The notes beneath the pieces are model-generated. The model was given only the letters and a program-made list of their open reading frames with translations, did not search any database and was not told the origin of the DNA. This document shows, in pieces, positions 17,601 through 48,200 of a DNA stretch of 64,000 bases. Source of the DNA: Ruditapes philippinarum (taxonomy: Eukaryota); the NCBI RefSeq assembly GCF_026571515.1, contig NW_026864408.1:62001-126000 (forward strand), written 5' to 3'. Position numbers and translations under genes: made by a program. Position 1 is the stretch's first letter. Each line of letters opens with the position of its first letter.

Positions 17601-20600
17601 TAAGTCGAAAAAGGGGCATAATTCTGTCAAAATGCTTGATAGAGTTACCTCCTCCTGTCTACAGGTTGGGGTCATGATGGTAAAACAAGTGTGCAAAGTT
17701 TCAAAGCCATATGTCAATGGACTTTGAAAATATTTGAACTATTACAAAAACTTTAACGTAAATTCTAAGTCGAAAAAGGGGCATAATTCTGTCAAAATAC
17801 TTGATAGAGTTACCTCCTCCTGTCTACAGGTTGGGGTCATGATGGTGAACAAGTGTGCAAAGTTTCAAAGCCATATGTCAATGGACTTTGAAAATATTTG
17901 AACTATTACAAAAACTTTAACGTAAATTCTAAGTCGAAAAAGGGGCATAATTCTGTCAAAATGCTTGATAGAGTTACCTCCTCCTGTCTACAGGTTGGGG
18001 TCATGATGGTGAACAAGTGTGCAAAGTTTCAAAGCCATATGTCAATGGACTTTGAAAATATTTGAACTATTACAAAAACTTTAACATAAGTGGTTACGCC
18101 GACGCTCGGGTGACTGCAATAGCTCTACTTATTCTTATCGAATAGTCGAGCTAAAAAGGGGCATAATTCTGTCAAAATGCTTGATAGAGTTACCTCCTCC
18201 TGTCTACAGGTTGGGGTCATGATGGTGAACAAGTGTGCAAAGTTTCAAAGCCATATGTCAATGGACTTTGAAAATATTTGAACTATTACAAAAACTTTAA
18301 CATAAGTGGTTACGCCGACGCTCGGGTGACTGCAATAGCTCTACTTATTCTTATCGAATAGTCGAGCTAAAAATGCAGTATACTGATACTGTAGGCTTTA
18401 TGAAAATAATGACATCATATTATGCAGTTAAATTTGTTAAAATTTTAAAAATATATCAATATGGTATTGCTTAAATAGTCTAGATGCTGGTTATATTTTC
18501 ATGAATACAGACAAGTCAGTCCAGCTTTTATATTTAGAACTGTCCATAATCAATTTGGGGGATTTCAAGAGATGTAAAATTTGTCATTCAACAGTATAGA
18601 GCCTGGTCACACTGCAAGGATATGCAGGCAGGCTTTGGCTCTGAACTGGTGGCAAGACTCCAACACAAGGAAGTAAATTACTGATGGCATATAAATGTTA
18701 TCATCACTGCTAATTTATTCTTTTACTTTTATTGTGTGATATGCATTTTTATCACACACCAGTGCCGACTTTGAGACTCCATAATGGTACTGCACGGCCG
18801 TGCATATATTTTGACTTGACATCATTAATGTTATACAAATATATCTTAAAGACAAGCTAAATGTTAGCATTATACTACAGGCGCGTCAGTGAAAAATGAC
18901 TCTTGTTTCACTTTAAACGGTACTTATTTTGGGTATGTGATCAACAGAATATGAAATTTCTGTAAGTTCCATACTGAATTTATTGAACTTGTTGAATAAA
19001 ATAATATTAGGCTCGACAGAGGCTTGTATAATTATATAATTTTATTCAACTTGTGCAATAAATTCAGTATGGAACTTACACTCATTCAATATCCTCTATA
19101 TATAATCATTGTTGAAATGACAATGCAGGGACTGAATTAAAAGATGTCAGACTACTGAACAAGTGTTAGTGAATCCCTCATTAAATTCTTTTTAAAAAGG
19201 ATACCTGATATAGTGTACTTTCTTTCATACTGGATGATCACATAACACTTCTTTACTTACATGTATAAATATATACTTTTGTCACATAATTAAAGATCAT
19301 AGGCCATATGTTGTATTCATATACCACTGATAATACATGTATATATATATATCAATCTGTTTCTTACTTTCAATGATAACAGAAAAATCAATTCTCTTAA
19401 TGCCTTTGTCATGTTTCACATTGACACACAGCTTCCATTCATCCTAACTTACAATCTTGTATACTTTTGTGAAAAGGTGAAAAGATCGGCTTTTAGTAAT
19501 TAGAGCTTAATTGTCAACACTTCCATCGAAAACCTATGCTAATTTGTTTTTCTGATGCACTCATTGTATGCTTGCAATTATTTCATTTCATTCAAAGCCT
19601 TGTGAAGAATGCATTCAGGTTGGGTAACGTTTTGATTGGATAGTTTTTATTTTATAAATGGAAAGTGTCACTTTATGAATTATGACATTATCATATGATG
19701 CAATAATGTGCAATGAAGGTTGGAACATAAAATTTTCATGAGTCTTATTCAAAAATTGATCATGTGTTATAATGTAGACTGTGCTCTTTCTCTGAATAAC
19801 TTCCTTTTCATATATTGCTACACAGGAAGTTGAAACAGTAAACCAGACAAACAAACAAAATATCACCTTCCAGTCTGTACAAATCTAAATTTAAATTATG
19901 TTAAACAGTTTAGACTTGATAAGATTGAATAGTCCCACTTGTCAAAATATTCCATCAATGAATAAAAATGTTTATGTTTTTTTCCAAAATGATTATCATC
20001 GTTCCCCTATTGCCAACAATGTATAAAGATGACAAAACAACATTTAACGAGGAATCAAGATTGTCATAAATTAGGACTATAACGACAATAACCTTTGTGA
20101 AAAGACATGCTGATTAGTATATTTTCTTGTGATAAAATCATCAAACTTTATCCCCTGCCAAAACTGAACAAGTTGCCTTAATCCAGGGCACTGTGCCACG
20201 ATTATTGGTAATTGTTATGATCTGTATGTACTTATGAAAGAATAAAAACAATGATACATACAAAAGCTTGAAATTTTGAAAATTGGTATAGTATCATTTA
20301 TACACGTTGCTGACGCAATATATGGGAGAATATAGCCTGAATGAGATAAATATGACCTCAGAGGCTCTAGCAAATTGTTATTGTTCATAAGGAAACCCAG
20401 CAACTTTTGACTGTTTGCAAAAAAGCATTGTAAAAAGACACACATAATCAGCGGCTATGCCTAACGTTGCATTACAAAAAAAGTAATTCCAGTTAAGTCA
20501 TCATTGCCAAGTAACTTTTAATTAGAGTTCTGAAGTAATGACATTTGAATAAAGAAATAATGAAAAATACTATAAAAACAAAATGCAATAAAAATGTTAT

Positions 20601-23600
20601 GCACGCAGATAGTTAACTGTCTACAATATAGAAATACATTGTTATTTGTGCGGGCAATTTGGTTCTTCACGGTATTTACAGCAAAGTATACAAATCGTTT
20701 AAGCCAATCGGATTCAATAAATTTATTCGCATTATCATGATTTATAAAAAGTGCTCTTGATCAGATATTCGGCCTTCATGCATTTCCCTGCAATCCTCAA
20801 CATCCTGTGCATAAAACAGAATAAACTGTTCGTAAACAAATTTTTAAGCTATTACTTTTAAGTAGGATAATTTAACTGTTTAGCAATGATTCCGCCCATG
20901 ATTGGGATCATCTCCACTTAGTGAAATATATAAACATATTTCTTTCATACAGGTATTCTGGGAATTTTTTTTTTTTCAAAATTCATATAATAATTTCGAA
21001 ACATATATAGCTTTATACAATTTACACAATTCATCTTTCTTGTGTTTAAGTAAGTTTGACCGAACTCTGAGATTTATTATCACTTTGATTTTAAGCCTGA
21101 TATACATGTACTTACTGATACATAGTGCAGCTAACAGTCTTGTGGCGGCCTCTGGTGGATCGCAGGAAGGGAAGAATGGTTGAAGAGCATAATAAGCAAA
21201 AGTGAGAGCAACAATAGCTTGAGCTGTCGGCCGAATGATAATCAAATTCACCTGAAATACACAAATACTCATCAGCATTATTCTCATAATCATCATCATT
21301 ATACTAATTATGCTACTCGTCATAATCATCCTTATTACATTGTTAACTCATCATCATCATTATTATCATCATAATCATCATTATTACCATAGCAATCCTT
21401 ATTGTACTAATCATTATCATAATCATTATCATCATCATCATCATCATTATACTAATCATACTACTCATCATAATCATCCTTATTAAACTCATTATCATCA
21501 TCATCATAAAATAGATAAAATATAAAATAATGCATTGGATATGTAAGGGTCTAATAAGCTTCATATCAAGAAGCACAAATTATTTTGATTTAATTTTTTT
21601 TGTCGTTGTTTTTCATTCTTTTCATTTCTTTTTTAATGTTTAAACAGATCTATAAATCTTAAACCACAGTACCTTTCATTTATCTCTTACAATATTGTTA
21701 TTGGTACATATTTGATCTTTATTAAACTAATCTCCTTAATCTCTGACTGATATATATCTATACAAAGAGACCAAGTAAACGAAGAAATTAAAATGACCAT
21801 AATATTTATAATTCAGAATTTCACAAATGCTAGATTAAAACAAGATATGTTTGTAAAACATGTATGCCCCCTATCAGCAGCCAATTATTCATGTGATAAG
21901 GTAATTATGCATGACTTCTGACCCTGTGATCAAACAATTAATAAGGGTTATCAAGTATCTACTGGTCATGACCTTGACCTTTGACCCCTTGACCAAAACT
22001 CCAATAGGGGTCATCTGCTGGTCAAGACAAATCATCATACAAAGTTTGAAGTTCCTAGGCCTAAGCGTTTTTACTTAATTTGATCAGAAACCGTTTTTAC
22101 TTACAAGGTCAATGTGACCTTTGACCTTTGACCCCTTGACCCCAAAATTCAATAGGGGTCATTTGCTGGTCATGACTAATCACCATGCCAAGTTTGAAGT
22201 TTCCTAGGCCTAAGGTTCTTTTATATTGATCCGAAACCGTTTTAACATACAAGGTCAATGTGACCTTGACCTTTTGACCCCAAAATCAATAGGGGTCATC
22301 TGCTCGATCCATGGGGGACCAAATCACCTATGCCAAGTTTGAAGTTCCTAGGCCGAAGTGTTTCTTTAGTTATTGATCAAACCGTTTTTACTTACAAGGT
22401 CAATGTGAACCTTGACCTTTGACCCCTGATCCCAAAATCGAAAGGGTAAATCTGCTGGTCATTGAAAAATTCACCATACCAAGTTTGAAGTTCCTAGGCC
22501 TAAGGGTTCTTAAGTTATTGATCAGAAACCGTTTTTACCCCTTACAAGGTCAATGTGAACCCTTGACCTTTGAACCCCTTGACCCCAAAACTCAATAGGG
22601 GTCATCTGCATGGTCACCACCCCAATCATCATACAAAGTTGAAAAGTTCCTAGGCCTAAGCCGTTTTTAGTTAATTGATCGGCAACCGTTTTTTTTACCT
22701 ACAAGGTCCAATGTTACATGACCTTTGACCCCTTGACCCTAAAAACAATAGGTCATCTGCTGGTCATGACCAAATCCCCATACCAAGTTTGAAGTTCCTA
22801 GGCCTAAGGTTTCTTAAGTTATTGATCGGAAAGCAATTTTTACCTACAAGGTCAATGTGACCTTTCCCTTTGACCCCTTAACCCCCAAAATCAGTAGGGG
22901 TCATCTGCTGCTCACTGACCCAATACCATCCACCAAGTTTCGAAGTCCTACGGCCTAAGGTTTCCCCTTTAGTTATTGATGCGGAACTGCTTTTTACCTA
23001 AGAGGTCAATGTTACCTTGACCTTTGACCCCTTGACCCCAAAATTCCAATAGGGGTCATCTACTGATCTACATGACCAATCACCATACCCCAAGTTTTGA
23101 AGTTCCTAGGCCTAAGGGTTTCTTTAATTATTGATCCGAAACTGTTTTTACCTAAGGGAGGTCAATGTGACCTTGACCTTTTACCCCTTGACCCCAAAAT
23201 CAATAGGGGTCATCTACTGATCATGACCAATCACCATATCAAGTTTGTAGTCCCTAGGCCTAAGGTCTTTCGTTATGATCGGCAAAACCGTTTTTACCTA
23301 ACAAGGTCAATGTAGACCTTGACCTTGACCCCTTAACTCCAAAATCAATAGGGGTCATCTCTACTGATCATGACCAATCACCATATCAAGTTTTGAAGTC
23401 CCTAGGCCCTCAGGGTTCTTTCGTTATTGATCGGAAACCGTTTTTACCTACAAGGTCAATGTGACCTTGACCTTTGACCACTAAACCCCAAAATCAAATA
23501 GGGGTCAATCTGCTGGTCATAACCAATCACCATACCAAGTTTGAAGTTCCTAGGCCTAAGGGTTCTTTTGTTATTGATCGGAAACCGTTTTTTTTTACCC

Positions 23601-26600
23601 AAGAGGTCAATGTGACCTTGACCTTTGACCCCTTGACCCCAAAATTGTTAGGGGTCATCTACTGATCATGACCAATCACCATACCAAGTTTGAAGTTCCT
23701 AGGCCTTAAGGTTCTTTACTTATTGATCGGAAACCGTTTTTTGCTTACAAGGTCAATGTGACCTTGACCTTTGACCCCTTGACCCAAAATCAATAGGGGT
23801 CATCTACTGATCATGACAAAATCACCATTACCAAGTTTGAAGTTCCTAGGCCTTTAGGTTCTTTAGTTATTGATCGGAAACCGTTTTTGCTTACAAGGTC
23901 AATGTGACCTTGACCTTTGACCCCTTGACCCCAAAATCAATAGGGGTCATCTACTGATCATGACAATCACCATACCAAGTTTTGAAGTTCCTAGGCCTTA
24001 AGGTTCTTTAGTTATTGATCGGAAACCGTTTTTGCTTTACAAGGTCAATGTGACCTTGACCTTTGACCCCTTGACCCCAAAATCAATAGGGGTCATCTAC
24101 TTGTCATGACCAATCACCATACCAAGTTTGAAGTTCCTAGGCCTAAGGGTTCTTTAGTTATCACTCGGAAACCATTTGGTCTACGGACCGACGGACCGAC
24201 AAGTGCAAAGCAATATACCCCCTTTTTTTCAAAAGGGGGCATAATAATCATGTCATAATGATTACTAACATAATGGGGATTTTCGTTTCAACAGGGTATT
24301 ATTAGTAATAATATATTGAAATTAAATGATTACAAGTTTATAAATACTGTTTCACAGTAAAAATATTTTATTTTTAAGAGACGATAACAAAATCAACTGA
24401 AGAGATGTCACAAAAACAGCATGCTTGACTTTTCTTGAAATGTGATGGTAAACAAAATCCAGATAGGGAAAATAATTCAGTAAACATTTATGCTAGAGTT
24501 AAGGGGTCTTGGTCTGTGGTTTACAGTTACAGTCCAAAAGACATTAATGTTTATATTTCAAGTGAATACCTTTAGCTTGTATAATGATGAATTTTTCATG
24601 CTAGTTCTTAACCAAAGGGGTATAATTTAGAAAAAGTACATGCTAGAGTTATGGGTCTTGGACAGAACAGGAAATCGTGGCTGCATACAATAGGTGTTAA
24701 CCGGAAGCCAGCAAATACAAGTTTTCCATATCTAATCTTGGGCTACATAAATACTATTACTGTTATAACTTCACAGTGCACTGCTATTATCAATAGCATG
24801 GTCAATGTGTTGCAGTAATTACATGTATCAATATATCTAGTAAAAGTTTGTTTGTACGCCATAACCTAGACCGGAAAAATCCACATTTGCCGAGTTTCAA
24901 TCTTTATGCCATGTGTGCACGAACCCAAATAACTTCAGTGGTTGATAAAATGTAGTATCATCCATAACATAAACAAGTGATGCAATAGTAAGTGAGCTGA
25001 ACTTTTTTATTTGAATACTCTACTATAAACTAAAAATAACATTTAAGTATCATCCACAGCTGTTATACATCCATCTGCTAACATTATTTAAAGCGCACAA
25101 AGATTTTAAAATTAAAATTCACAAGGTCATATTGTTTTTCGACTAGGGCATACAAGACATTCATGTTTTGCAGTTATAACTAGAACTGCCACTATCATGG
25201 CGTGAATACCCCCGCATACCACTTTGTCTGAATCAACAGTGGCCATTTAGAACTCAAGGACAACCACCCTGCCAAATCTGAGGTGACTAAGCCAATGCAT
25301 TGCTAAGTTATGTATTCTACATGCTTCAAATGTCAAAATCAATACACTCTGGACAGGCATTGGGGAAAAGCTTTATTTTGACAAGGTCCCTGTGACCTTG
25401 ACCTTTGACCCAGTGACCTCAAAATCAATACGGATCATTTACTAATCATGACTAACCTCCATGCCAAATATGAAGACTGTGGGTCATAGGAACCTTAAGT
25501 TTTTGGGCGGACAAGCTTTTTGAAGTCAAGGCCCCTGTGACATTGACCTTTGACTTCAAAATCAATAGGGGTCATCTACTAATCACGACTAACCTCCATG
25601 CCAAATATGAAGACTGTGGGTCAAAGGAATCTTAAGTTATTGGGCGGACAAGCTTTTTGAAGTCAAGGCCCCTGTGACCTTGACCTTTGACCTCAAAATC
25701 GATAGGGGTCATCTACTTATCATGACTAACCTCCATGCCAAATATGAAGACTGTGGGTCAAAGGAATCTTAAGTTATTGGGCGGACAAGCTTTTTGAAGT
25801 CAAGGCCCCTGTGACCTTGACCTTTGACCTGGTGACCTCAAAATCGATAGGGGTCATCTACTTATCATGACTAACCTCCATGCCAAATATGAAGACTGTG
25901 GGTCAAAGGAATCTTAAGTTATTGGGCGGACAAGCTTTTTGAAGTCAAGGCCCCTGTGACCTTGACCTTTGACCTGGTGACCTCAAAATCAATAGGGGTC
26001 ATCTACTTATCATGACTAACCTCCATGCCAAATATGAAGACTGTGGGTCAAAGGAATCTTAAGTTATTGGGCGGACAAGCTTTTTGAAGTCAAGGCCCCT
26101 GTGACCTTGACCTTTGACCTGGTGACCTCAAAATCGATAGGGGTCATCTACTTATCATGACTAACCTCCATGCCAAATATGAAGACTGTGGGTCAAAGGA
26201 ATCTTAAGTTATTGGGCGGACAAGAAAAAACCGACGGACGCCGGACGGCCAGACGGCCGGACGGACAATCTGATTCCAGTATACCCCCCTTACAACTTTG
26301 TTGTGCGGGGGTATAAAAATTGTTTTCAATACCAAATCAGACAGCTGAATGTTTATACTTTTTAAGTAATATTTTGGTAGTCCATCCACCTGACTTGTTT
26401 TCCTGGATAACCAACAAATAACATTACCAACTTATTAGCAAGTGTCCGGCAGATAAGCAGTGAGAGACAAATTGAGGGATTGGTGCAAAACAGCTGTAAC
26501 TCGTATTATATAATGAAGGAGTTACGTCTGTTTGTCACCAATCCATGAAAATGACTTTGACTCAATGTCTGAGATCAATTGTCATGAAGAAATTTTGCCT

Positions 26601-29600
26601 CCGACACCTGAGGATTGATCCAACTGGATCGTCACTTACAAATACCATTGAGGTAATTTCAAACTTACCCATAGCTGCAGGAAAGCCAAGCATGGTCCAA
26701 AGGCTTCAAGAATGTAGGCATAATCCCCTCCTGACCTTGTGATTGTGGTTCCAAGCTCCGCGTAACACAGTGCACCAATAAGTGACAACAACCCGCAACC
26801 TGCCCACACGATAATTGCAACACCAACCTGAAATAACACAAACATTAAATATTTATTATTCACTCATATGACATCTTAAATGATTTCGTTCACTTGTATA
26901 ACCCTTTGTCAGGTCTATTGCCATAAAATAAAGAACTTCAATCACGGCTTCAGTGCGACTCTTTGTAGATTCTGTACAATCCCTAAAATTAACTAGAACT
27001 ATCACTAAATGTGATTAATACCCCCACAAGTCTGCTTCGGAAATGAGGATGTTACTAGTAACAGAATACCTTGTAAAAGAATTGAAACATAGAGTAATGG
27101 TTGTGGGCAATTAAAGATAATTGTTGTTCATATATGTTGCATTTCCTTTGAATGTGGTTGGCCATTGATGAAGTTTAATTGAATTACTATGTAATAAGTC
27201 CAGAAAGACAAAGAAAAAGAACAAAGGGCAATAACTCTATAAATACTGAAGATAGAGTTATAGTTCTTGTGCACTGCACTTCCTCTTATTGTGCTTGACC
27301 ATTGTATGAAGTTGTTTTGAATTTCAACCAGTACGTTTTAAGTTATGCTCCGGACAAGGAAAAGTATCAAAGGGCAGTAACTCTGTATTTTGTCAAAATG
27401 GAGTTATGGCTCTTGTGCACTGCATTTCCTTTTAATGTCCTTGACAACTGTATGAAGTTGTACTGAATTCCAAACATTAGTTTTCAAGTTATGCTCTGGA
27501 CAAGGAAAAGTAACAAAGGGCAATAACTCTGTAATTAGTCAATATGGAGTTATGGTTCTTGTGCACTGCACTTCCCCTTATTGTGCTTGACCATTGTATG
27601 AAGTTGTTTTGAATTCCAACCAGTAGTTTTCAAGTCATGCTGTGGACAAGGAAAAGTAACAAAGGGCAGTAACTCTGTAATAAGTCAAGATGGAGTTATG
27701 GTTCATATGCACAGCACTTCCTCTCAATGTGCTTGACCATTGTATGAAGTTATAATGAATTCCAACAATAAGTCTTCAAGTTATGGTCCGGACAAAAGAA
27801 AGCAATGGAAAAGAAACAAAGGGCAATAACTCTGTAATTAGTCAAGATGGAGTTATGGTTCTTGTGCACAGCACTTCCTCTCAATGTGCTTGACCATTGT
27901 ATGAAGTTATAATGAATTCCAACAATAAGTCTTCAAGTTATGGTCCGGACAAAAGAAAGCAATGGAAAAGAAACAAAGGGCAATAACTCTGTAATTAGTC
28001 AAGATGGAGTTATGGTTCTTGTGCACTGCACTTCCCCTTATTGTGCTTGACCATTGTATGAAGTTGTTTTGAATTCCAACCAGTAGTTTTAAAGTTATGC
28101 TCTGGACAAGGAAAAGAAACAAAGGGCAGTAACTCTGTAATAAATCAAGATGGAGTTATGGTTCTTGTGCACTGCACTTCCTCTCAATGTGCTGGACCAT
28201 TGTATGAAGTTATAATGAATTGCAACAATTAGTCTTCAAGTTATGGTCCGGACAAAAGAAAGCAATGGAAAAGTAATAAAGGGCAATAACTCTGTAATTA
28301 CTTTAGATAGAGTTATGGTTCTTATGCACTGCACTTCCTCTCAATGTGCTTGACCATTGTATGTAGTTATATTGAATTCCAACCATTAGTCTTCAAGTTA
28401 TGGTCCGGACAAAAAAAGAAGGCAATGGAAAAGCAACAAAGGGCAATAACTCTGTAATTACTTATGATATAGTTATGGTTCTTGTGCACTGCACTTCCGC
28501 TTATTGTGTTTGACAATTGTATGAACTTGTTTTGAATTCCACCCAGTAGTTTTCAAGTTATGCCACGGACAAGGAAAAGTAACAAAGGGCAATAACTCTG
28601 TAATTAGTCAAGATAGAGTTATGTTTCTTACGCACTGCACTTCCTCTCAATGTGCTTGACCATTGTATGTTGTTATATTGAATTCCAACAATTAGTCTAC
28701 AAGTTATGCTCCGGACAAGGAAAATGCAACGGACAAAAAAAAGCAATGGAAAAGCAACAAAGGGCAATAACTCTGTAATTACTTTAGATAGAGTTATGGT
28801 TCTTGTGCACTGCACTTCCCCTTATTGTGTTTGACAATTGTATGAAGTTGTTTTGAATTCCAACCAGTAGTTTTCAAGTTATGCCCCGGACAAGGAAAAG
28901 TAACAAAGGGCAATAATTCTGTAATTAGTCAAGATAGAGTTATGGTTCTTGTGCACTGCACTTCCTCTCAATGTGCTTGACCATTGTATGTAGTTATATT
29001 GAATTCCAACTATTAGTTTTCAAGTTATGCTCCGGACAAGGAAAATGCAACGGAAGTCTGGACCGACCGACCGACCGACCGCCCGACCGACCGACCGACC
29101 ACCGAGTGACTCCTATATACCCCCCCAAACTTCGTTTTTGGGGGTATAATAATGGACTGGTCAAAATTCAAAGGAGAACAAGTTCATTTCATTACTTTTG
29201 TGGAGTACATCAATAAAACCTCAAATCTTGTTAATACTATCAATATGTATGAATTTCCTACAAGATATTGGCTTAAACGAGATACTGACTTCAAGGCATT
29301 AGAGACTGATCGCATTTGCTACAATTTGGACAGACAAAACTTAAATCTGAAACTTCTTGGTTACAAAAATAGACAGACAGGACCAAATCTGATACTTCTT
29401 AAGAAGGAAATAAAGCTCTATGTCATTAAAAGCTTACATTCAACAAACATCTTTCTTACAAGGAGTAGGTGTATAAGTAAAGTTTCAGTAGATTTATGGT
29501 CGAATAGTCCGATATGTAGCAATTAAAGCATTTAAACAACAATGTTTAAGTAGCAATTTAGCCTGACACAACATTTTTCAACTTCTCTGCCCACAATGCC

Positions 29601-38600: not shown

Positions 38601-41053
38601 TAATACGCAGTTACATGACCAATTACCTGACCAATTACAGTTACTAAATTTGCATATTGTTTACTGTTTGATACTATTTTCATCCTAAAATATGGCTTTA
38701 TATTTACTTTTATATCTTTTCTTTTACTAATTATTTACATACAATCTAGACAAACTTTAGTCTAGATATGTTAGGAGTAATAGATGACAACTGTCTTGTA
38801 AAGTAAAATTATAACAACAAGAATTTGCATGATTTATGTAGTGTTACACCCTGTACTGGCATTTGAATAATATATAGTATCAAGTAACACTGGCATACTT
38901 TTGTAATAATTATATTGTAATTTTTAATAGACATAACTTTGTAAAGTGCAAAATTTTACAACACAAAAAAATAAAAATTTTCACCAAAAAAAAATGGAGT
39001 TGATTTTACGTCGCACCAACATAGTAGAGTTCATACAGCAAATTTTCAGCTTTACTGGTTGAGGCAGGCCCCAAGTGCCCTTCTGTGCATTATTTCAGGC
39101 ACAAGCGGGGACTTGAGTAGAACCACCAATGTTTCGTAAGCTGGCTGGATAGGTCCCACACATGAAAGAATCTAAAATCCCTGGCAGCCATTTGAACCCA
39201 CAGCGGTAAAGGGCAAGTAGTTTGAAGTCACCGACCATAACCACTTGGCCAGGTACGCCCCATAAAATGTAGTTAATGACCTAAGAAATATGACATGCAA
39301 AAAGTGTTGGGGGAGGGCAAATATTTTAAGTGACCATAATAATCATTAATTAATTCAATGGTAGACTCAGTAGACAATACGATTTATCTTCCTTTTTAGC
39401 TTTGACATGTAGGTTGTGTCAAGGCTTTACTTTCTTCATAAATTCTTTTGTTAATTGTTAGTTATGAGTTGTGTTTTCATATTAATGTTGAACTGTTGAA
39501 TTTGACATTTTTTCAGACACTATGTACATTAAATTTTGTACATTTACAGAGTTTTCACCCCCCCCCCCCCCCCCAAAAAAAAAAGACTTGTAATAAAACT
39601 GAACAGTGAACAAATTTACAATATCCTGTTATATAACCTGAATTCTCGAAAAACAGAATCCGGTTTCAAACATAAACAAGGTTATCTTTTAAATACGGTA
39701 TGCTTATTTAGAACAACAAATTCTGAGGCAGTTACATATATAATTTACTTTTCTTAATGCATGGGTAACTGGTAACCTTCTACAAATTATGCTTGATACA
39801 TTTGTTTAATGTTTCTTGTAAGGTTAGGTCATGATCATTTCTATCACTGCACACATTTCATACTATGGGAACCAGAATAAACTTAACAGGACTTTGTCAT
39901 ATAGACAAAAATCAACTTCAGTTAATATAAAAATTATAATAAAATGGTTGATGATAAATTTCCAACTTAAGAATAGTTGGTTTAATTAGTAATTTATATC
40001 AATATTTTTAGAGCTTTATTGTAAAACAACTTCTTGCAACATTTACAACATTTCCATATCAATATAATGTAATCCTCACCATGAAACTAACCGGAACTGG
40101 CCATTGGTGTCATATGTAGAAACATGGTCAAAACCCTAGTAGGTCTAAAACGGCTATGTGGCAAATGCATTTTGAATGCATTTCAAGTAAAGAGACTGAT
40201 ACTTTATTCTTTTTCTAGATGAATTTAATTGTATTTACTGCAAATTTATGTGGTATGTGGAAAGTTATTTAATCATGAAAAAAATGTTAGTTTTTGCTGT
40301 TTAATTGTCAACTAAATTTTCTCACATAAACTATTCTGGAAGAGAATTAGTTTTCTAAAAATTGAATAATTTAGGATGTAGAATAAAGTTATCTCCAAAA
40401 TAATAACTGATATATCTTACACAGATTTTAAACATATACATTAATATTCAATAAGGTGTGAATTTATGCAGACTTAATAATTAATGAAAGATCTGCTTCA
40501 GCCTTATTTATAGTTACAAAGAAACTAAATATTGCATCATCAAATTTTTAACAATAAAAGTTACAAGTACAGTGTATATTTCCCATGCCCCTTTCACAAC
40601 ACCTTTATAGTTAGCAGCTGAAAGGGCAAACACCTGCGCCACTAACAAATTTAGCAATTATTACCTGATGTTACAATAGACTATAATTTATAAAACACTT
40701 ATCAATACTTAAAATAAATGTAAACAATACTAAAAGATGTGTCATTCAAATTCAAGGAAGTTGACATAAATATCATTTCATTAGACATATAAATCTGCTA
40801 CCTGTTATTTTTTCTACATACATTTAATTCTGAATAAACATAAAAAACAACAACTTACAGAACCGGCTCCTTCCAACACCCCCCTGGGTGAGACAAAAAT
40901 CCCAGATCCAATTATAGACCCAACTATGATTCCAACCCCGTTGAACAGCGTTATGGTCCGTTTTAATTTCACTGTCCCATCCTGGTCATCGCTTGGAGTC
41001 TCTGAAGAATCATGTCCACTACTGTTTCGATTTTTAACTTCTGTCGAAGTCAT
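2588..41053 (-). CDS. SLC7 family L-type amino acid transporter light chain, gene A (LAT1/JhI-21-like); complete 12-exon CDS, 493 aa
   Basis: Coding exons of 195/159/136/126/109/45/124/104/97/150/178/59 nt join in frame through GT-AG introns (1482 nt). LAT motifs: [27 protein letters not shown] (heavy-chain disulfide Cys), [39 protein letters not shown]. Exact orthologue not assignable by eye. Confidence 0.95.
3130..3307 (-). CDS. SLC7 gene A exon 11 (FNIAIPI...TGVPVY...TNFV)
   Basis: 178 nt, TM11-12, GTAAGT donor. Confidence 0.93.
3754..3903 (-). CDS. SLC7 gene A exon 10 (GGLSIIML...[10 protein letters not shown]...RPIK)
   Basis: 150 nt, phase 0/0, tttttcag acceptor, GTAATA donor. Confidence 0.92.
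3874..4290. repeat. About 96-bp tandem repeat (4 copies) spanning the intron 9/exon 10 junction of gene A
   Basis: CCTCCCTGAAAAA recurs, placing exon-start positions at 3903, 4000, 4096 and 4192. Confidence 0.9.
4601..4697 (-). CDS. SLC7 gene A exon 9 ([12 protein letters not shown]...PAMLFT)
   Basis: 97 nt, GTAAGA donor. Confidence 0.95.
5232..5335 (-). CDS. SLC7 gene A exon 8 (TFAEKVYG...[14 protein letters not shown])
   Basis: 104 nt, TM8 motif, GTAAGT donor. Confidence 0.93.
6048..6171 (-). CDS. SLC7 gene A exon 7 ([11 protein letters not shown]...SNAVAV)
   Basis: 124 nt, GTAAGT donor. Confidence 0.95.
6290..6474 (-). mobile_element. tRNA-headed SINE with V-like core (degraded relative at about 31740-31920)
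   Basis: GGGGAGCGGTGGCCAAGTGGTTAA head, CAGTACTGGTTGGTTCCAGGAAGCGGACTCG core. Confidence 0.65.
7027..7071 (-). CDS. SLC7 gene A exon 6 ([14 protein letters not shown])
   Basis: 45 nt, GTGAGT donor. Confidence 0.93.
7509..7695. repeat. Degenerate long hairpin (probably the same element class)
   Basis: AGGGTATTATCTGA...TCAGATAATACCCT arms. Confidence 0.55.
8153..8261 (-). CDS. SLC7 gene A exon 5 (...[14 protein letters not shown])
   Basis: 109 nt, TM6 motif, GTAAGT donor. Confidence 0.93.
8367..8581. mobile_element. Second copy of the palindromic MITE (left end truncated), nested in an older TIR element (about 8345-8652)
   Basis: Highly similar to 9662-9896; outer TAAACTCCA...TGGAGTTTA inverted repeat; a further remnant at about 4450-4520. 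Confidence 0.8.
9320..9445 (-). CDS. SLC7 gene A exon 4 ([28 protein letters not shown]...)
   Basis: 126 nt, phase 1/1, ttttcag acceptor, GTAGGT donor. Confidence 0.93.
9662..9896. mobile_element. Palindromic MITE (GAGCC...GGCTC, AWWT-like flanks, possibly Sola-related)
   Basis: About 105-bp arms forming a near-perfect hairpin; flanks ATAT / AAAT. Confidence 0.85.
11495..11563. repeat. Compound (TGAA)n(TCAA)n microsatellite
   Basis: Read directly from the sequence. Confidence 0.85.
11851..11921 (-). pseudogene. tRNA-Pro(AGG)-like pseudogene or SINE head
   Basis: Minus strand TGGTACAGGGGTA...CTCGTTTAGGGTGTGAGAGGTCAGGGGTTCCAATCCC closely follows tRNA-Pro; acceptor stem does not pair. Confidence 0.6.
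16531..16876. repeat. 28-bp minisatellite (CATTTGTGAAAATGGTCCCTTATCAAAG), about 12 copies
   Basis: Read directly from the sequence. Confidence 0.9.
17078..18373 (-). mobile_element. Helentron-associated (HINE-like) element with about 165-bp core tandem repeats and a duplicated end
   Basis: Subterminal IR GCTCGACTATTC (17105-16) / GAATAGTCGAGC (18140-51 and 18356-67), terminal hairpin CTGTC..GACAG, about 7 near-identical units. Confidence 0.8.
18962..19079. repeat. Long hairpin (probably the same element class)
   Basis: GTAAGTTCCATACTGAATTTATTG...CAATAAATTCAGTATGGAACTTAC arms. Confidence 0.65.
21116..21251 (-). CDS. SLC7 gene A exon 3 (VNLIIIRPT...LAALCI)
   Basis: tttcag acceptor, GTAAGT donor, phase 1; contains conserved Cys in FPSCDPP. 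Confidence 0.95.
21266..21508. repeat. Degenerate (ATC/ATT)n microsatellite next to the exon 3 acceptor
   Basis: Read directly from the sequence. Confidence 0.9.
21839..24245 (-). mobile_element. HINE-like element with about 120-bp core repeat (TGACCTTGACCTTTGACCC)
   Basis: ATGCCCCC / GGGGGCAT subterminal IR, GACC/GACG microsatellite, about 18 tandem units. Confidence 0.8.
25178..26319 (-). mobile_element. HINE-like element with 120-128-bp core repeat
   Basis: ATACCCCCGCA / TGCGGGGGTAT IR, GACG microsatellite, about 7 units. Confidence 0.8.
26669..26827 (-). CDS. SLC7 gene A exon 2 (VGVAIIVW...FLQLW)
   Basis: tttcag acceptor, GTAAGT donor, [20 protein letters not shown]. Confidence 0.95.
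26991..29150 (-). mobile_element. HINE-like element with 145-160-bp core repeat (AAAGGGCAATAACTCT)
   Basis: ATACCCCCA / TGGGGGTAT IR, (CCGA)n microsatellite, about 12 units of two length types. Confidence 0.8.
30870..31160. repeat. About 40-bp degenerate minisatellite (ATGCCATATAACCAACAA...)
   Basis: About 7 copies. Confidence 0.75.
33437..33506. promoter_or_regulatory. Inverted CARE pair plus AP-1 site, candidate intronic enhancer of gene A
   Basis: TGATGTAAC directly followed by ATTGCATCA (33437-54); TGAGTCA (33500-06). Confidence 0.5.
33970..34360. mobile_element. Long-hairpin element, same architecture, different sequence
   Basis: Hairpin 33982-34098, then IR TTCTTGCATAT (34101) / ATATGCAAGAA (34349). 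Confidence 0.7.
36721..37500. mobile_element. Tc1/mariner/pogo-type MITE
   Basis: TA-flanked CTGTAAATC...GATTTACAG termini, repeated TTCGCG/CGCGAA subterminal motifs. Confidence 0.8.
38995..39261 (-). mobile_element. tRNA-headed SINE, same core family, diverged copy
   Basis: TGGCCAAGTGG A box, GGTTCAAAT B box, core homologous to 48634-48750. Confidence 0.75.
40859..41053 (-). CDS. SLC7 gene A exon 1 (MTSTEVK...GVLEGAGS)
   Basis: ATG in aaaATGa context at 41053; [30 protein letters not shown]; GTAAGT donor, phase 0. Confidence 0.9.
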
Positions 41054-41099
41054 TTTGTCGTGTGATGAACCGCTAACTGGTTCGAAATCTGTGGAACTA

Positions 41100-41410
41100 C
41101 TGACTGAAAACACATGCACGTTGTTTTGGTATCAATTACGCATGCGCACAACTTCGGGGGCTGTACCATTTTCCAGTAGAGGTAGGTAAACAATGTACTA
41201 TTAAATTTGGCGCTACTATTTGTTTATGTAAACAGGCGAGTAAGCAAGGCATCTGCATCAACTTTTCAATAAAACTGAGACAATGTTCTAAACACTGATG
41301 AGAAAGAATGTATTTTTAAATCAGTACTTCTTCTAAAAAGTGTAGTGTAGGTATGTTGCTATAGCAGCTAACAAATACTATATTCCATTGATATATTTGC
41401 TGACGCAATA
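41100..41410 (-). promoter_or_regulatory. Putative proximal promoter of gene A
   Basis: Inr-like TCAGTC (41107-41102, which could instead be a splice acceptor), NRF1-like TGCGCATGCGTA (41137-48), GTAAACA twice (41186, 41228), E2F TTTGGCGC (41206-13), TGACGCAAT (41401-09). Confidence 0.5.
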
Positions 41411-42576: not shown

Positions 42577-44479
42577 TTCGTATTATCAAGGATATGACGT
42601 ACGCAGAGTAAGATTTAAAGGAAGTCTCTTTATACTAGTACAAAGGGTTGTCTCTTATCTCTAATCAAATATGTTTATAATGCTTATAAACATTATGCAT
42701 AAGAAATACTTTCATTTATATTTTTCAACAGCGTTTGGTTTTCTGGTGTCACTTGTAGTTTCATTATCCATATACCATGCAAAATCATCTTTCTCTTCTG
42801 TTGCCTTTTGGCAATTAGTACTGCTGTTGTCACGTGATAAGCATGTTACATGCTCTAAAACATTATTTAAACATTACAAAACTCATGTTTGCCTTTTTTA
42901 AAACGAAAAAATAGTGCCTGAGACATAGTGTGCCTTTAATATTATGTATCGGCAACAGGTTTCAAACGGATGTGTAATGACATTATGATCTATAATGGTG
43001 AACGTATACTTTTCTACTTTTATAGGAGAGGGGTGTTTGTAGGGTTTGGGAATATTTTTTAATTCTTCCTATGTAGAATATTGACGTCTTTGTTACATGT
43101 ATTAGTATTACTAAACAACTAATCAACGGCCTATAATCCTAAGCGTAAAGCGATATTACTTTGGATAGAGTTGAGCCCCTTTGACAGTTGATAAAATATT
43201 TGAAATTTCCAGCCTTCCGAAACAGAAAGGTAAAGTTTTTTATTCCTTCTTATGTACTTGACATTTTCATACTGTTTTTTTTTTTTAAATGAGAATGATA
43301 AATAAGATGAAATTGAGCCTGGTCCCGTTGAAACTAATGCACGGAGGAGCTTACGTCGATGTTCATCGTCTGCATAGCTGGAAAGACACCACTAAATCAT
43401 GATTTCAGTCCAGCCACATTAATTGAAGATTAAAAGAACTATATAGCAAAAAGAATCTAATTGAGCGGCCATTTGAGGTATTTAAGTGACGTATTAAAAT
43501 ATGCAAGGTAGCATTTGAGGTCCATGGGAGCAAAATAGAAATAACGGAAAGTAATAAATTAAAATGGAGATTTCATGCTGTTTCTCACGTGAAATGTATT
43601 TAATTTGTATGGTGGCTGTTTTATATTATGTTGAATCTAAAAAAAGCAAATGTTGTATCTAGAAAAAAGAAAGAAAAAAACTCCAAACTCCAAAATACGA
43701 CAAAGTCAAAATGTGCACATTGCATTTGAATCAATCTTGGTGTTACATTCCCGCAAAATAAAATATTGAACAAAAATATGTTATATGTTTAATCTCAGGT
43801 CAGTCAGGATACCTTGTAATTATAGATATAATTACGACACGTTCCGTGAAAATCGTTTATTTTCAAAATAAGAACTTCATTGACATTTTATAATGATAGA
43901 ACAAACAAGTCATAAGAAAAATGATTGTGTGAAACTTTCACAATAAAATGCAAACGAAACAAATTTTCTCATGAAATTTGAAACTTTGATGGTTATAACT
44001 TCATTTCTTAAAAAAAGAAATGTTATCGGCTGTCAATCCTTGCTGGGTCATTTCATTTAGAGTTGTTGTTTTTTTAATTATCTTTTTACAAAAATGTTGT
44101 TCATTTTACTATATAATTAACAAATAGAAAAACACAGTATAGATATTTAGATACATAAGAAATACTGAAATACTGAAGTTGAGTGCTCAGTGTCAGAAGT
44201 TTTCTAGTGCCATCATTTGTATTTAGACCTGCATGGTTGCTGATACCTGATACTTTGGATTGATAGAAAAGCGTTTGAAAAGACTGATTCAATTGTTTTA
44301 TTTATATATTTCTTCCAACGGTCTACATATGTATTGAAATTAATTTTAAACTTTGGAATTGTTTACTGTATACATTATTTATACAATACGTCTACACAAC
44401 AGTTTGCTAGGATTTAGTATAATACAAGGCATAAAGCACCCAGGGTGAGATATAATCTGACCAGTAACGCGGAGTTATA

Positions 44480-44760
44480 TTTTGATTGACAGATCCCATA
44501 TTCCCGCCTCTGTATTTTCATTGGTTGACCTACATAAATTCGACCGGATGTTGATTACTGCTGCCATTGTGAAGTTCCACGCGCGTAAGTTAGGAAGTAA
44601 CAAAATTGACCATTAGCGAATTAACTAAATACCCATACGGCTGTCCGGAGCTAGATATAGTGCCACTGATAAAATAAACTCTGTCAACATTTACGAGCTG
44701 TTTGAATTTGTGCGAATTACCAAGAGGAATCGTTTTGTGGAACACGTGGGTTTCACTTCT
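44480..44760 (+). promoter_or_regulatory. Putative proximal promoter of gene B
   Basis: CpG-enriched; TTCCCGCC (44501), ATTGG (44520), CCGGATGT (44544), GGAAGT (44593), CACGTG (44743). Confidence 0.5.
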
Positions 44761-44828
44761 CAGTTAATTTGTTATTTATGATAAGATAGTCGGATTTTTT
44801 AATATATATTGAAGAAAACACTAAGAAA

Positions 44829-45291
44829 ATGGGTGAAGATTTTAAGGTTGTGAATGCTGACGGTGATAGTGATTCTGGAAGAATAAAGTTGAAGAAGGAA
44901 ATAGGACTTCACAATGCTGTGGCTATCATAGTGGGGGTTATTGTGGGGAGTGGAATTTTCATTAGCCCTAAAGGAGTTCTTATGGAAGCGGGCTCTGTGG
45001 GACTGTCACTTTCAGTATGGGGAATGTGCGGAATTATTTCACTTGTAGGGGCTTTATGCTATGCTGAACTGGGAACATGTATTCTGAAATCAGGGGCAGA
45101 TTATGCGTACATTGGAGAAGCATTTGGACATTTACCTGCATTTTTGTACTTATGGGTTGCTTTAGTTATTATTATGCCAACAGGGAATGCAATTACAGCT
45201 TTGACATTTGCTAAATATGTGCTACAGCCAATATTTCCAGACTGTGAGGTTCCATCAAGTGCAGCAAGTTTACTGGCGGCCTTATGCATTA
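44829..45291 (+). CDS. SLC7 gene B exon 1 (MGEDFK...LAALCI)
   Basis: aaaATGg start, TM1-TM4, GTAAGT donor at 45292, phase 1. Confidence 0.95.
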
Positions 45292-48200
45292 GTAAGTATT
45301 TAATTTTAGTTATTGATTTCCCTCTATGGGCCCCTTGTAGTAAATTTACTATATAGTAACACCATGCATTGAACACATGGGTTTCATCATCAAATAGTTT
45401 CGGTGATACACATGGTTGCATCATTAGGAAGGTTCCATTTTCAATTCATGAATGATTGATGGGGTTAGATTTGAAATCAATAATATCTTAAAAATTGATT
45501 TTAAAGTTGAAAATAACTTGAATCACATATAGGCTGGCATACATGTATATTGGGCTAACATGTATTTTTATATATAACACAAATTTTAATATTAAAATAT
45601 AACTCAAAATGGCATACACTATGTTCATTTACACTGTATTATATTACTTTGTGCTGTTGATGAAAATAATAAATAATAAAATACTTCCTGACACAGTCTA
45701 CTATAATATATTCATATAAATATAAATATGTTCACTTAAACAAATGAGCTCTTCTTTCTCAAATAGGAAAAAAAATAACAAATTTCAAATTGAGAGGAGT
45801 CTCAGAGGAATCAACAAATCTACTGGTGTGAGATGGAAAGGGATTTAAAACTTTTCCCACTACACCCTTACCCTCATATCTATACTTACCCTGGCTGCTG
45901 AATTTCATAAATGGGCTTGTCCAGCATCTGTTTTTTTTAACTGACCATTATCTATTTTGGGGATGTCAAGATGAAAATTAAAAGTTACTCTGCCAGCAGA
46001 TGTACTGGTTGCAATCGCTTTACAGGTACTCTCAGTTCCAACCGGCTAAGCCAGTTTAACAAATAAATCCTTGAGAAATGTAAAAGGTGACTTGTATCAA
46101 ATATAAATTTGTCTTGGTCTGTATTTCCTGTGTTGAGTAAACACTTTTGTTTACATATTTGTCAATGTTAATCAGAGCCCAAGGTAGGCTCCTCTTAAGA
46201 CCTACTCTATAGAAAAAGCATCTGTTTAATTAAAGTGACATTATGTCCAAAAAGCATCTGTTTAATTAAAGTGACATTTTGCCAATAAGAGCAAATAGTG
46301 AGTGTTCAAGTAAAATTAAAATACAAATGTTACTACATTTAATGATTTTTTTCATATTAATGTTTTCAATTTTATAATATTAAGCATCACTGAGTAATCA
46401 TTAACCCCTGTGACGACCCTGAGACTCATATAGATATCCTTCAGGAATTAGCGGTTATGTCCAATTTATGAAGAGTGGGACAGTCTTTTTATATTTTAGA
46501 CAAGTTTTTATATTGTATCCTTTAGTTTACAATAATTGTAATTATTAATTATTGTTTACTCGCCATTATAATAGTCATTCTTTTGGAATATACATCTAAT
46601 TTACCTCAACTTGACCCTAAAAAAATAGCATAATGTCACTTTAAGCAACAACCTATTTTCTCAAAAGTAGTATGTAATTTCTTACTATGATAACATTTAT
46701 ATCAACAAAAAATAGACTTATCCCCAAGGTGTAACTGTTAATTAATTAACCTTTAACATAGTGAACCATTGTTCGTTCTTTCTGATGTTTTCTTTTTTTT
46801 TAACTGACATAGATAAATGTCAGTTATGTTAAGTGTTATTTGTACATAAGTATTTTTGTACAAATGTACCAACTTGGACACATACTGGCAAATTTATTAC
46901 TGTTGAATTTTGATCCATTTGCTTCATTGTATGGTATTAAACCATTTTCATGCTCTCACTTGGAGGAAGGGGGAGTTGTTGCTTATGTCTGTCTTGCTTT
47001 CAAGGTGTGGGACTCGCTGACAAACTAGTAGAACGTGGGCCAGGGGGCATCTGTATACTGTGGACACACTTCTTTAGTTTAATCGTATTGTTGCAAAAAA
47101 GTCTCTAAATTTCAACATATTGTGTTCATGATTAAATTAATTTTCTGGACAAAACTACATAAATCATATCATTTGAAGCTAATAATTCAATTCTAAATTT
47201 GCAGTTAAAATATTAAATATATAATATTGAATATTCAAAGTCTGTCTAAATATAAATTGGGAAAAAAGATTTCCAGCTATATTAGTCTAAGTCTATACAA
47301 ATGTATATTAATTTGGGAAAATATTTCGATGAGAATTAAGGGAATGATTTTAGATTAGCAGCAACATATGGCCATATTTATTACTAGTGTAATAAATAAC
47401 TTATAATTATGATCACATGCCTGAAGTCAAGAGCTTTATACACATCAGTTCAGCTGCTCTATAAAAAGGGAAGGGATACTGATAAGGATCAGCAAGCGCA
47501 GTGGTCAGCCTCTGTGGTGTTAATTAATTCATGGGGTTATAACATGTTATTAATTGGCACTTGGTTAATTGATCTTATCCCTTTTGGCTTTATATCTTCT
47601 GAATCTGTGTTATAGTCCAAGGTCAACAATATAGAGACTGGTCAGATTGCATGGATGTGCATGCTGTCATGCCTCTCAGTATGTACAGTACGTCTTGGCA
47701 TTATTTCAGTAAATTATTTCAGTTTCATTATCTAATGATATTGATCATCTACCATGCAATGATGCATGGCCTGGCTTTGTTGCAGATCTGCAGATACATT
47801 GTATATGTAATTTTCCCAAGTTTAATTTTTTAATTGTAACCAATTTTCTGTTGAAAATGTGCAATTTTCTGTTGAAAATGTGCAATTTTCTGTTGAAAAT
47901 GTGCAATTTTCTTATAACTTTCAATAAAGACTCTAAACATGAAAAAAAAAAAGGGTTTACAATTAGAGTGGTTTGTTGGTGCATAAACGTCAACCTGGGA
48001 CATAAGAGTCACTGGTTCATTATATATAAAAATCAAGGGTATTGCCCACGTCTGATGCATGTATATACATACAGAAATGTCACATGACAAATGGGTCGAA
48101 GCTGGAACTCTAACCATGGGTATGCAGGTTGATGACCAGTATGACGTGGCCTTTGCAAATATGAATCTTAGTTGTTATACTATTTACAACTGAAATAGAC

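What the first reader, a model, noticed from the sequence alone, without database searches (positions are those of the whole stretch)
19696..45423. Divergent SLC7 pair carrying many ATF4-type amino-acid response elements: candidate starvation-responsive transporter locus
Seen: the exact 9-mer TGATGCAAT occurs at least 5 times, all in introns 1-3 of gene A (19696, 24978, 33446 rc, 36370, 40531 rc). Two more CAREs lie 90-130 bp into intron 1 of gene B (45381, 45415), and TGACGCAAT lies at 41401 upstream of gene A. The intron-1-proximal sites of both genes share the extension CATCATCAAAT (40531 and 45381). A rough mononucleotide estimate gives about 1 exact 9-mer per 64 kb on both strands, ignoring TG/CA bias. 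Established: mammalian SLC7A5, SLC7A11, SLC7A1 and SLC38A2 are ATF4 targets through TGATGnAAn elements, often in the first exon or intron. Inference: the GCN2-ATF4 to LAT circuit is conserved in this invertebrate and co-regulates both paralogues.
Basis: partly seen in the sequence, partly recalled or inferred. Interest (0 to 1): 0.72.

Follow-up and report, generated by a model that had tools for sequence, protein, structure and literature searches.

The report
Stress-switch motifs in clam transporter introns
Two back-to-back amino-acid transporter genes of a clam carry DNA motifs of the type bound by the stress regulator ATF4, the motifs also mark related genes in this clam and in two other bivalves, and they likely switch the transporters on under stress as in mammals, though binding and induction are untested.

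Summary
The five exact TGATGCAAT lie in unique intronic DNA of gene A (0.5-0.6 expected). On their own they are modest evidence: 4 of 100 window shuffles reach 5, roughly 90-250 genome windows would do so, and the broad consensus is not enriched (20 against 15).

Independent data support the ATF4 reading:
- Two other SLC7 paralogues hold 6 and 4 exact sites (17 against 6.0 expected over 369 kb; controls 4 against 5.1).
- Gene B orthologues in two other bivalves keep TGATGCAAG 66-77 nt into the same intron.
- All 5 bivalve metagenome loci carry the 8-mer core (10 against 0.8; loci chosen after the sites were seen).
- Clam ASNS and SerRS have sites at their 5' ends.
- Clam ATF4 has the two-uORF leader.

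Not shown: binding, induction, GCN2 as the kinase, conservation at gene A, or a shared enhancer (5' ends 3.4 kb apart, with a repeat between).

Verdict: probably a real ATF4/CARE-controlled LAT-type transporter pair, a known mammalian circuit seen in a bivalve.

The parts
3122..41111 (-). Gene A, LAT-type SLC7 light chain (11 coding exons located; last exon not located)
   Evidence: tblastn with P0003; splice sites read out; exon 2 best matches human LAT1 in PDB; RNA contigs reach 41069-41111 in 3 of 4 runs, exon1-exon2 splice seen in 2
40857..41111 (-). Gene A exon 1 (ATG at 41053)
26669..26827 (-). Gene A exon 2
21116..21251 (-). Gene A exon 3 (holds the Cys aligned with the LAT extracellular-loop Cys)
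40531..40539 (-). CARE TGATGCAAT in ATGATGCAATA context, 318 nt into gene A intron 1, about 570 nt from the furthest RNA 5' end; best candidate for gene A
   Evidence: unique flanks
36370..36378 (+). CARE TGATGCAAT (ATGATGCAATA context), gene A intron 1, 4.5 kb in
   Evidence: only a weak local self-palindrome hit
33437..33454 (.). Abutting inverted pair TGATGTAAC (+, 33437) and TGATGCAAT (-, 33446), gene A intron 1
24978..24986 (+). CARE TGATGCAAT, gene A intron 2, between two tandem arrays but outside them
19696..19704 (+). CARE TGATGCAAT (ATGATGCAATA context), gene A intron 3
20311..20319 (+). TGACGCAAT inside a dispersed repeat; shares a 15-mer with the 41401 site; probably incidental
41401..41409 (+). 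CREB-C/EBP-type site TGACGCAAT, about 290 nt upstream of gene A's furthest RNA 5' end
   Evidence: motif class listed as ATF4-bound in PMC10637723
41950..42900 (.). High-copy repeat between the two 5' ends
   Evidence: many 90-95% alike contigs with loose ends in 4 of 4 runs
44554..45291 (+). Gene B exon 1 (ATG at 44829); 99% identical to a Mercenaria LAT2-like protein; gene runs past the window end
45381..45389 (-). CARE TGATGAAAC, 90 nt into gene B intron 1; same 10-mer (GTTTCATCAT) as the human ASNS AARE in a published reporter
45415..45423 (-). CARE TGATGCAAC, 124 nt into gene B intron 1; second copy of a short local duplication
54329..63145 (+). Gene B exons 2-5 (54329, 56091, 59459, 63017)

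Best explanation
The two genes are LAT-type SLC7 transporters whose introns carry ATF4-type C/EBP-ATF response elements, and each gene is likely switched on through its own intronic sites when cell stress raises ATF4. Shown: gene identity, the sites, their excess in gene A and in two further SLC7 paralogues, a site at the same intron position in two other bivalves, and a clam ATF4 with a 3-codon uORF plus an overlapping out-of-frame uORF. Inferred: eIF2alpha phosphorylation (by GCN2, PERK or another kinase) lets ribosomes bypass uORF2. ATF4 with a C/EBP partner would then bind the intron-1-proximal sites (40531; 45381/45415) and probably some deeper gene A sites, and transcription of both transporters would rise in parallel with ASNS and tRNA synthetases. 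Odds: proximal sites functional about 0.75; most deep gene A sites functional about 0.5; amino-acid limitation among the triggers about 0.6.
For: 1. Gene A: 5 exact sites against 0.5-0.6 expected, peaked at the optimal word, outside repeats. ATGATGCAATA occurs 3 times against 0.13 per 64 kb; ATGATGCAAT is the preferred word in human MPRA data (PMC10637723).
2. Other SLC7 loci: 17 exact sites against 5.98 in 369 kb (P 1.7e-4); control loci 4 against 5.08 in 313 kb; arbitrary loci 2 in 183 kb. C11765 has 6 against 0.53 and xCT-like C3822 has 4 against 0.24.
3. Gene B orthologues L020 and L021 both have TGATGCAAG at intron +77 and +66, beside a shared block (27 of 40 identical; best of 40 shuffles 22).
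4. All 5 bivalve metagenome loci carry TGATGCAA: 10 against 0.78. In a six-locus set it ranked 1 of 12,425 8-mers seen.
5. In the independent set 6 of 18 sites read ATGATGCAAT against 0 of 19 background sites (P 0.008).
6. ASNS and SerRS, the 2 canonical targets whose 5' ends could be read, both have sites within about 130 nt of the first splice donor; IleRS has a candidate.
7. Clam ATF4: bZIP matches only ATF4 in PDB; two-uORF leader.
8. Human LAT1 has a first-intron AARE (PMC11497297).
Against: Window-level excess is modest: 4 of 100 shuffles, and about 94 (Poisson) to 250 (empirical) genome windows would reach 5. A non-repeat cluster of 5 in 26 kb occurs on C2, where only an EGF-domain exon was recognised. 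The broad consensus is not enriched. The window's gene B intron does not align to L020 or L021 above shuffles in the same orientation, and its sites are on the opposite strand. Four annelid-like members of the gene B clade have no site in the first 260 nt. The 25 non-bivalve genomic loci show only 7 against 3.65 (P 0.08). Six of 13 paralogue contigs have no exact site (one is a haplotype copy), and the 2 sites on C12383 are repeat copies. tRNA-synthetase loci as a whole are at background (2 against 1.85). The five bivalve loci were picked after their sites had been seen and come from two assemblies. A at -1 alone is not significant (11 of 18 against 6 of 19, P 0.07).
Confidence: 0.7

Rival explanations
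1. Only the sites near the 5' ends work; the four deep gene A sites are chance words in 31 kb of AT-rich, TG/CA-rich intron (TGATGCAAT is also the CpG-deamination product of TGACGCAAT).
For: 4 of 100 shuffles reach 5; non-repeat background cluster on C2; no orthologous DNA for gene A introns was obtained; mammalian ARS CAREs were sought within 3 kb of the start (PMC5175342).
Against: Self-trained Markov models of the same introns expect 0.46-0.67. Single-base variants are not raised. Paralogue C11765 has four exact sites 12-14 kb into the gene, three within 600 bp.
Confidence: 0.35
2. The sites are functional but answer mainly to ER, oxidative, hypoxic or osmotic stress through PERK or another kinase, or are read by another bZIP pair (ATF5-like, C/EBP or CHOP-type dimers), not by a GCN2 starvation circuit.
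For: All eIF2alpha kinases converge on ATF4 (PMC6480217). An oyster PERK is described (PMC9680061). GCN2 was not located in this genome; both searches were uninformative. The xCT-like paralogue is also site-rich.
Against: ASNS and SerRS, amino-acid supply genes, carry the same sites. GCN2 is near-universal in animals (recalled). This rival shares the cis-mechanism with the best explanation.
Confidence: 0.3
3. The divergent pair is one co-regulated unit: the CAREs act on both promoters, or a shared intergenic element drives both.
For: Head-to-head layout; sites within about 0.6-0.9 kb of each 5' end; a TGACGCAAT in the intergenic stretch.
Against: The 5' ends are about 3.44 kb apart with a high-copy repeat between. 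The intergenic stretch has no TGATG-type site. The genes fall in different clades, and unlinked paralogues are equally site-rich.
Confidence: 0.2
4. All of it is chance or repeat-borne, with no regulatory meaning.
For: Most background clusters inspected were repeat copies or satellites (C120, C488, C56, C103), so clusters do arise without function. The 20311 site is in a repeat.
Against: The five exact sites and both gene B sites have no match in 1.34 Mb of sampled own-genome DNA and lie outside tandem arrays. Independent excess in paralogues and in two other bivalves.
Confidence: 0.1

Closest known systems
Human SLC7A5 (LAT1) first-intron AARE, ATF4-induced on leucine or glutamine deprivation (PMC11497297, passages read)
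   Same: LAT-type light chain; C/EBP-ATF element in the first intron
   Different: Here binding and induction are untested; gene A has five optimal sites spread over 21 kb; one-to-one orthology to LAT1 is not established
Mammalian ATF4-CARE regulon of ASNS, SARS and other cytosolic aminoacyl-tRNA synthetases (PMC5175342, PMC5444488, passages read)
   Same: Clam SerRS has TGATGCAAT in intron 1, as human SARS does; clam ASNS has 5'-end sites; gene B's 45381 site equals the human ASNS AARE 10-mer (PMC6480217)
   Different: Clam ASNS sites appear to lie in a predicted non-coding first exon and intron 1 rather than upstream; exon layout inferred from sequence only
Drosophila 4E-BP (Thor) first-intron cluster of four ATF4 sites under GCN2-ATF4 control (PMC5223598, passages read)
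   Same: Invertebrate, intronic, homotypic cluster of ATF4 sites
   Different: A compact, tested enhancer in a translation regulator; here dispersed, untested sites in transporters of a mollusc
Human SLC7A11 (xCT) AAREs (PMC6480217, passages read)
   Same: The clam xCT-like paralogue on C3822 carries four exact sites
   Different: Intragenic in the clam; no ARE/Nrf2 test made

Membership tests
[quoted passage not shown] | Matches NTGATGNAAN (or CREB-C/EBP NTGACGNAAN) | tested here: met
   consensus from PMC10637723
[quoted passage not shown] | Above background and not repeat-borne | tested here: met
   Gene A 5 against 0.46-0.67, unique flanks. Holds for the optimal 9-mer only; broad consensus at background; 20311 is in a repeat
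[quoted passage not shown] | Lies in promoter, first exon or first intron near the start | tested here: met
   40531, 41401, 45381 and 45415 lie within about 0.9 kb of RNA-contig 5' ends (contigs do not fix a true start). The four deep sites do not
[quoted passage not shown] | Conserved in orthologues | tested here: inconclusive
   Gene B: a site at intron +66/+77 in 2 of 2 bivalve orthologues, but on the opposite strand and not alignable to the window; 0 of 4 annelid-like loci. Gene A: no orthologous DNA obtained
[quoted passage not shown] | Bound by ATF4 with a C/EBP partner | not testable with these tools
   needs ChIP or EMSA
[quoted passage not shown] | Required for stress induction of the gene | not testable with these tools
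   only assembled contigs were available for RNA, which give no levels
SLC7 heteromeric light chain (LAT type) | AA_permease_2 family with LAT1/LAT2 as closest solved relatives | tested here: met
   P0003 (99% identical to gene B exon 1): PF13520, best PDB hits LAT2 then LAT1. Gene A exon 2: best hit LAT1 (53 aa only)
SLC7 heteromeric light chain (LAT type) | TM1 GSG motif, TM6 F-x-Y-x-GW motif and loop Cys (roles recalled) | tested here: met
   Aligned to human LAT1/LAT2 for P0003; present in gene A exons
SLC7 heteromeric light chain (LAT type) | Pairs with an SLC3 heavy chain and exchanges large neutral amino acids | not tested
   heavy chain not searched; substrate range needs an assay
ATF4-driven integrated stress response | ATF4 orthologue with conserved basic region | tested here: met
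   L184 bZIP matches only ATF4 in PDB, E 3.4e-12
ATF4-driven integrated stress response | Short uORF1 plus out-of-frame overlapping uORF2 in the ATF4 leader | tested here: met
   3-codon uORF and 48-codon overlapping uORF; both splice joints in 4 of 4 RNA runs; only 1 run is listed as reaching past uORF1; model from PMC9971878
ATF4-driven integrated stress response | GCN2 kinase present | tested here: inconclusive
   PF12745 and PF13393 found nothing; the second also missed HisRS, so neither shows absence
Bidirectional-promoter gene pair | Starts within about 1 kb (recalled definition) | tested here: not met
   about 3.44 kb apart with a repeat between

The most novel reading that the evidence does not exclude
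Bivalves run an ATF4 regulon over their expanded SLC7 light-chain family in which each paralogue's stress inducibility is set by its load of optimal CAREs scattered through tens of kilobases of intron. Gene A, C11765 and the xCT-like C3822 are heavily loaded, gene B and C8734 lightly, and others not at all. Gene B's intron-1 element has kept its position between venerid-like and myid-like clams while turning over in sequence and strand.
Probability: 0.3. Interest if true: 0.62.

Novelty: new member of a known kind. Interest (0 to 1): 0.45.

Why it matters
The ATF4-CARE link to amino-acid transporters is established in mammals, and intronic ATF4 enhancers are known in flies. I found no description of it in molluscs in the searched library (most subscription journals are not covered). 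If confirmed, it extends the circuit to bivalves, which face starvation, hypoxia and salinity swings and use free amino acids as osmolytes (recalled). It would give ready reporter elements and marker genes (gene A, gene B, C11765, C3822, ASNS, SerRS) for the integrated stress response in a farmed clam. It would also offer a tractable case of binding-site turnover. It is not a new kind of mechanism.

Tried and rejected
- Broad consensus TGATGHAAH as evidence: at background; rejected.
- The CATCATCAAAT extension as a separate element: GA at -2/-1 recurs in 5 of 18 independent sites against 1 of 19 background sites (not tested for significance). It reads as a favoured ATF4 flank plus AT-rich chance; the longer extension was not seen at other sites.
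- Shared 15-mer at 20311 and 41401: 2 of only 4 genome copies, but 20311 is in a dispersed repeat and the C2048 copy lies in a long, internally repeated ORF; not used.
- Using genome clusters of ATGATGCAATA to find other ATF4 targets: C120, C103, C488 and C56 were repeats or satellites. Pfam on 78 selected ORFs from C2, C2048 and C7043 gave only EGF and Sushi pieces.
- blastn of non-coding DNA between clam genes and metagenome orthologues: no convincing alignment outside exons; the L020/L021 block had E 0.24 and was tested separately.
- All-taxa test with an objective rule: 30 loci after dropping 3 near-copies of L031; 16 against 4.8, rank 56 among 8-mers seen at least 5 times. The signal is carried by the 5 bivalve loci.
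- PSAT1 and cytosolic ValRS 5' ends fall off contig ends; not assessable.
- GCN2 searches were uninformative.
- Gene A's last exon was not found.
- No other species was among the sequencing runs, so no cross-species read laying; within-species polymorphism at the sites was not examined.
- The tree is the quick method on 150 columns; the careful search did not finish.
- Earlier-findings look-ups were empty; one search gave one shark NARS1 note.
- No supplements were opened; clam stress RNA-seq tables in papers outside the library could bear on induction.
Full report
WHAT THE WINDOW IS. The window is G000:C12895:62001-126000 of a 1.41-Gb genome. Gene B's first coding exon is 99% identical to a Mercenaria mercenaria protein named LAT2-like (P0003), so this is a venerid clam. 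tblastn and splice-site read-outs place gene A on the minus strand (ATG 41053; exons at 40857, 26669-26827, 21116-21251, about 9445 and on to about 3122; last exon not located). Gene B is on the plus strand (ATG 44829; exon 1 ends at 45291; the gene runs past the window). P0003's closest solved relatives are human LAT2 and LAT1; gene A's exon 2 is closest to LAT1. RNA contigs reach 41069-41111 for gene A (3 of 4 runs) and 44554-44606 for gene B (4 of 4). The 5' ends are thus about 3.44 kb apart, with a high-copy repeat at about 41950-42900; contigs do not fix true starts. The two genes fall in different clades of a quick tree.

THE OBSERVATION. All coordinates check out. The genome holds 22,808 TGATGCAAT, 1.04 per 64 kb. 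Five in the window gives Poisson P 0.004, but 4 of 100 dinucleotide shuffles reach 5, and about 94-250 windows in this genome would. The broad consensus is at background (20 against 15.25). Within gene A the signal is sharper: 5 against 0.46-0.67 in 24 kb of non-array intron, while the 27 single-base variants total 9. Three sites read ATGATGCAATA (0.13 per 64 kb), and ATGATGCAAT is the preferred word in human MPRA data (PMC10637723, passages). The sites are outside tandem arrays and have no match in 1.34 Mb of sampled own-genome DNA, except TGACGCAAT at 20311, which is in a repeat. A low-copy repeat would escape this sample. By contrast most background clusters inspected were repeat copies, although one unique-sequence cluster on C2 remains unexplained. 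The window alone is suggestive, not decisive.

INDEPENDENT TEST 1: PARALOGUES. I fetched the other SLC7 loci found (13 contigs; one haplotype copy dropped from the count). They hold 17 exact sites against 5.98 in 369 kb. Pooled control loci (ubiquitin-conjugating enzymes, tRNA synthetases, window flanks) hold 4 against 5.08 in 313 kb, and 19 arbitrary loci hold 2 in 183 kb. The excess sits in C11765 (6 against 0.53) and xCT-like C3822 (4 against 0.24). Six contigs have none, and two sites on C12383 are repeat copies.

INDEPENDENT TEST 2: OTHER BIVALVES. A metagenome scan gave 80 loci. L020 groups with Mactra and L021 with Mya, both in gene B's clade; L034 and L041 group with C11765; L064 groups with one C8734 gene. 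These five come from two assemblies. L020 and L021 both have TGATGCAAG at +77 and +66 of the intron where the window has its sites at +90 and +124. They share an upstream block (27 of 40 identical, best of 40 shuffles 22), while little else aligns. The window's intron does not align to them above shuffles in the same orientation, and its sites are on the other strand, so conservation is positional and would need turnover. The window's pair looks like a short local duplication. All 5 loci carry TGATGCAA (10 against 0.78), and in a six-locus set that also held L060 it was the top 8-mer of 12,425 seen. These loci were chosen after I had seen. With an objective rule over all taxa (30 loci, 3 near-copies dropped) the count is 16 against 4.8, rank 56. 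The 25 non-bivalve loci alone give 7 against 3.65 (P 0.08), and four annelid-like members of gene B's clade have nothing in the first 260 nt. No orthologous DNA was found for gene A.

INDEPENDENT TEST 3: CANONICAL TARGETS AND ATF4. Clam SerRS has ATGATGCAATA, its core 47 nt into intron 1, as human SARS has an intron-1 CARE (PMC5175342, passages). Clam ASNS has one site 43 nt after a TATA-like run and another just past the first predicted donor. IleRS has a similar, unconfirmed cassette 6.2 kb upstream of its ATG exon. PSAT1 and cytosolic ValRS were cut by contig ends. tRNA-synthetase loci overall are at background density. One of 11 bZIP hits matches only ATF4 in PDB. Its splice joints appear in 4 of 4 RNA runs, and the leader has a 3-codon uORF and a 48-codon out-of-frame uORF overlapping the main ATG, the layout behind delayed reinitiation (PMC9971878, passages). 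Only one run is listed as reaching past uORF1. GCN2 searches were uninformative.

MECHANISM. Shown: transporter identity, the sites, their excess, positional conservation at gene B, sites at ASNS and SerRS, and ATF4 with two uORFs. Inferred from mammalian knowledge: stress kinases phosphorylate eIF2alpha, ATF4 is translated, it binds these elements with a C/EBP partner, and each transporter gene is induced through its own introns. I put this at 0.7. Which kinase drives it, whether the deep sites matter, and whether the pair shares enhancers remain open (see rivals).

COMPARISON AND NOVELTY. It works like human LAT1's first-intron AARE (PMC11497297, passages), xCT's AAREs (PMC6480217, passages) and the fly 4E-BP intron cluster (PMC5223598, passages). 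As CAREs the sites meet the sequence, background and (for four) position tests, are inconclusive for conservation, and are untested for binding and function. Searches for a molluscan precedent (listings and abstract starts only) found none; one search returned 0 papers, and most subscription journals are not covered. From other papers I saw passages only: PMC9680061 (oyster PERK), PMC5444488, PMC9941348, PMC8195618 and bioRxiv 2025.07.14.664701; the last two added nothing. An earlier scan note on shark NARS1 is an unchecked parallel and was not used as support.

VERDICT. Observation confirmed; interpretation partly supported; a new member of a known kind; interest 0.45.

Noticed in passing
window 51337-53901 (-): hAT-family transposase ORFs (635 aa with Dimer_Tnp_hAT and DUF4371, plus an upstream zinc-finger piece) inside gene B intron 1.
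   Followed up: partly
window 48234-48500 (-): Short ORF with a C2H2-type zinc finger, below curated cut-offs, in gene B intron 1.
   Followed up: no
window 17136-18373, 21969-24177, 25382-26224, 27207-29105: Long tandem arrays with 145-165 bp units fill about 6 kb of gene A introns 1-3.
   Followed up: no
window 44585-44763; L020, L021: L020 and L021 have a splice acceptor just before the ATG, implying a 5'UTR intron. The window has a possible donor and acceptor here, but RNA contigs run through unspliced.
   Followed up: partly
G000 C11765:244921-254549 (L131, L004): LAT/y+LAT-like paralogue with six exact TGATGCAAT, as two tight groups plus one; its orthologue L034 has six CARE-like sites in 680 bp of intron 1.
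   Followed up: yes
G000 C3822:126676-132353 (L148): xCT-like paralogue with four exact TGATGCAAT and one TGACGCAAT within 6 kb.
   Followed up: partly
L100:4297-4760 and L120:2570-2730: ASNS and IleRS share a layout of TATA-like run, CARE 43-52 nt later, then a splice donor; non-coding first exons inferred from sequence only.
   Followed up: partly
L190:3029: TGACGCAAT about 260 nt upstream of clam ATF4, in a short gap shared with a spliced gene on the opposite strand.
   Followed up: no
L031, L033, L036, L037: Four closely related arthropod-type LAT loci keep TGATGCAAC 350-384 nt upstream of the matched exon.
   Followed up: no
G000 C56:60769-62825 (L177) and C488:174191-175361 (L169): Satellites whose 27-29 bp units each contain a CARE or CREB-C/EBP word, dozens of copies per array.
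   Followed up: no
L002:2333-2503 and 3121-3288; 5889-6137 and 7117-7203: Gene B has two similar exons for residues about 351-408 and a partial second copy of the next exon: possible mutually exclusive or duplicated exons.
   Followed up: no
G000 C13209:191775-204505: Two adjacent SLC7 copies, each matched as one uninterrupted stretch (apparently intronless).
   Followed up: no
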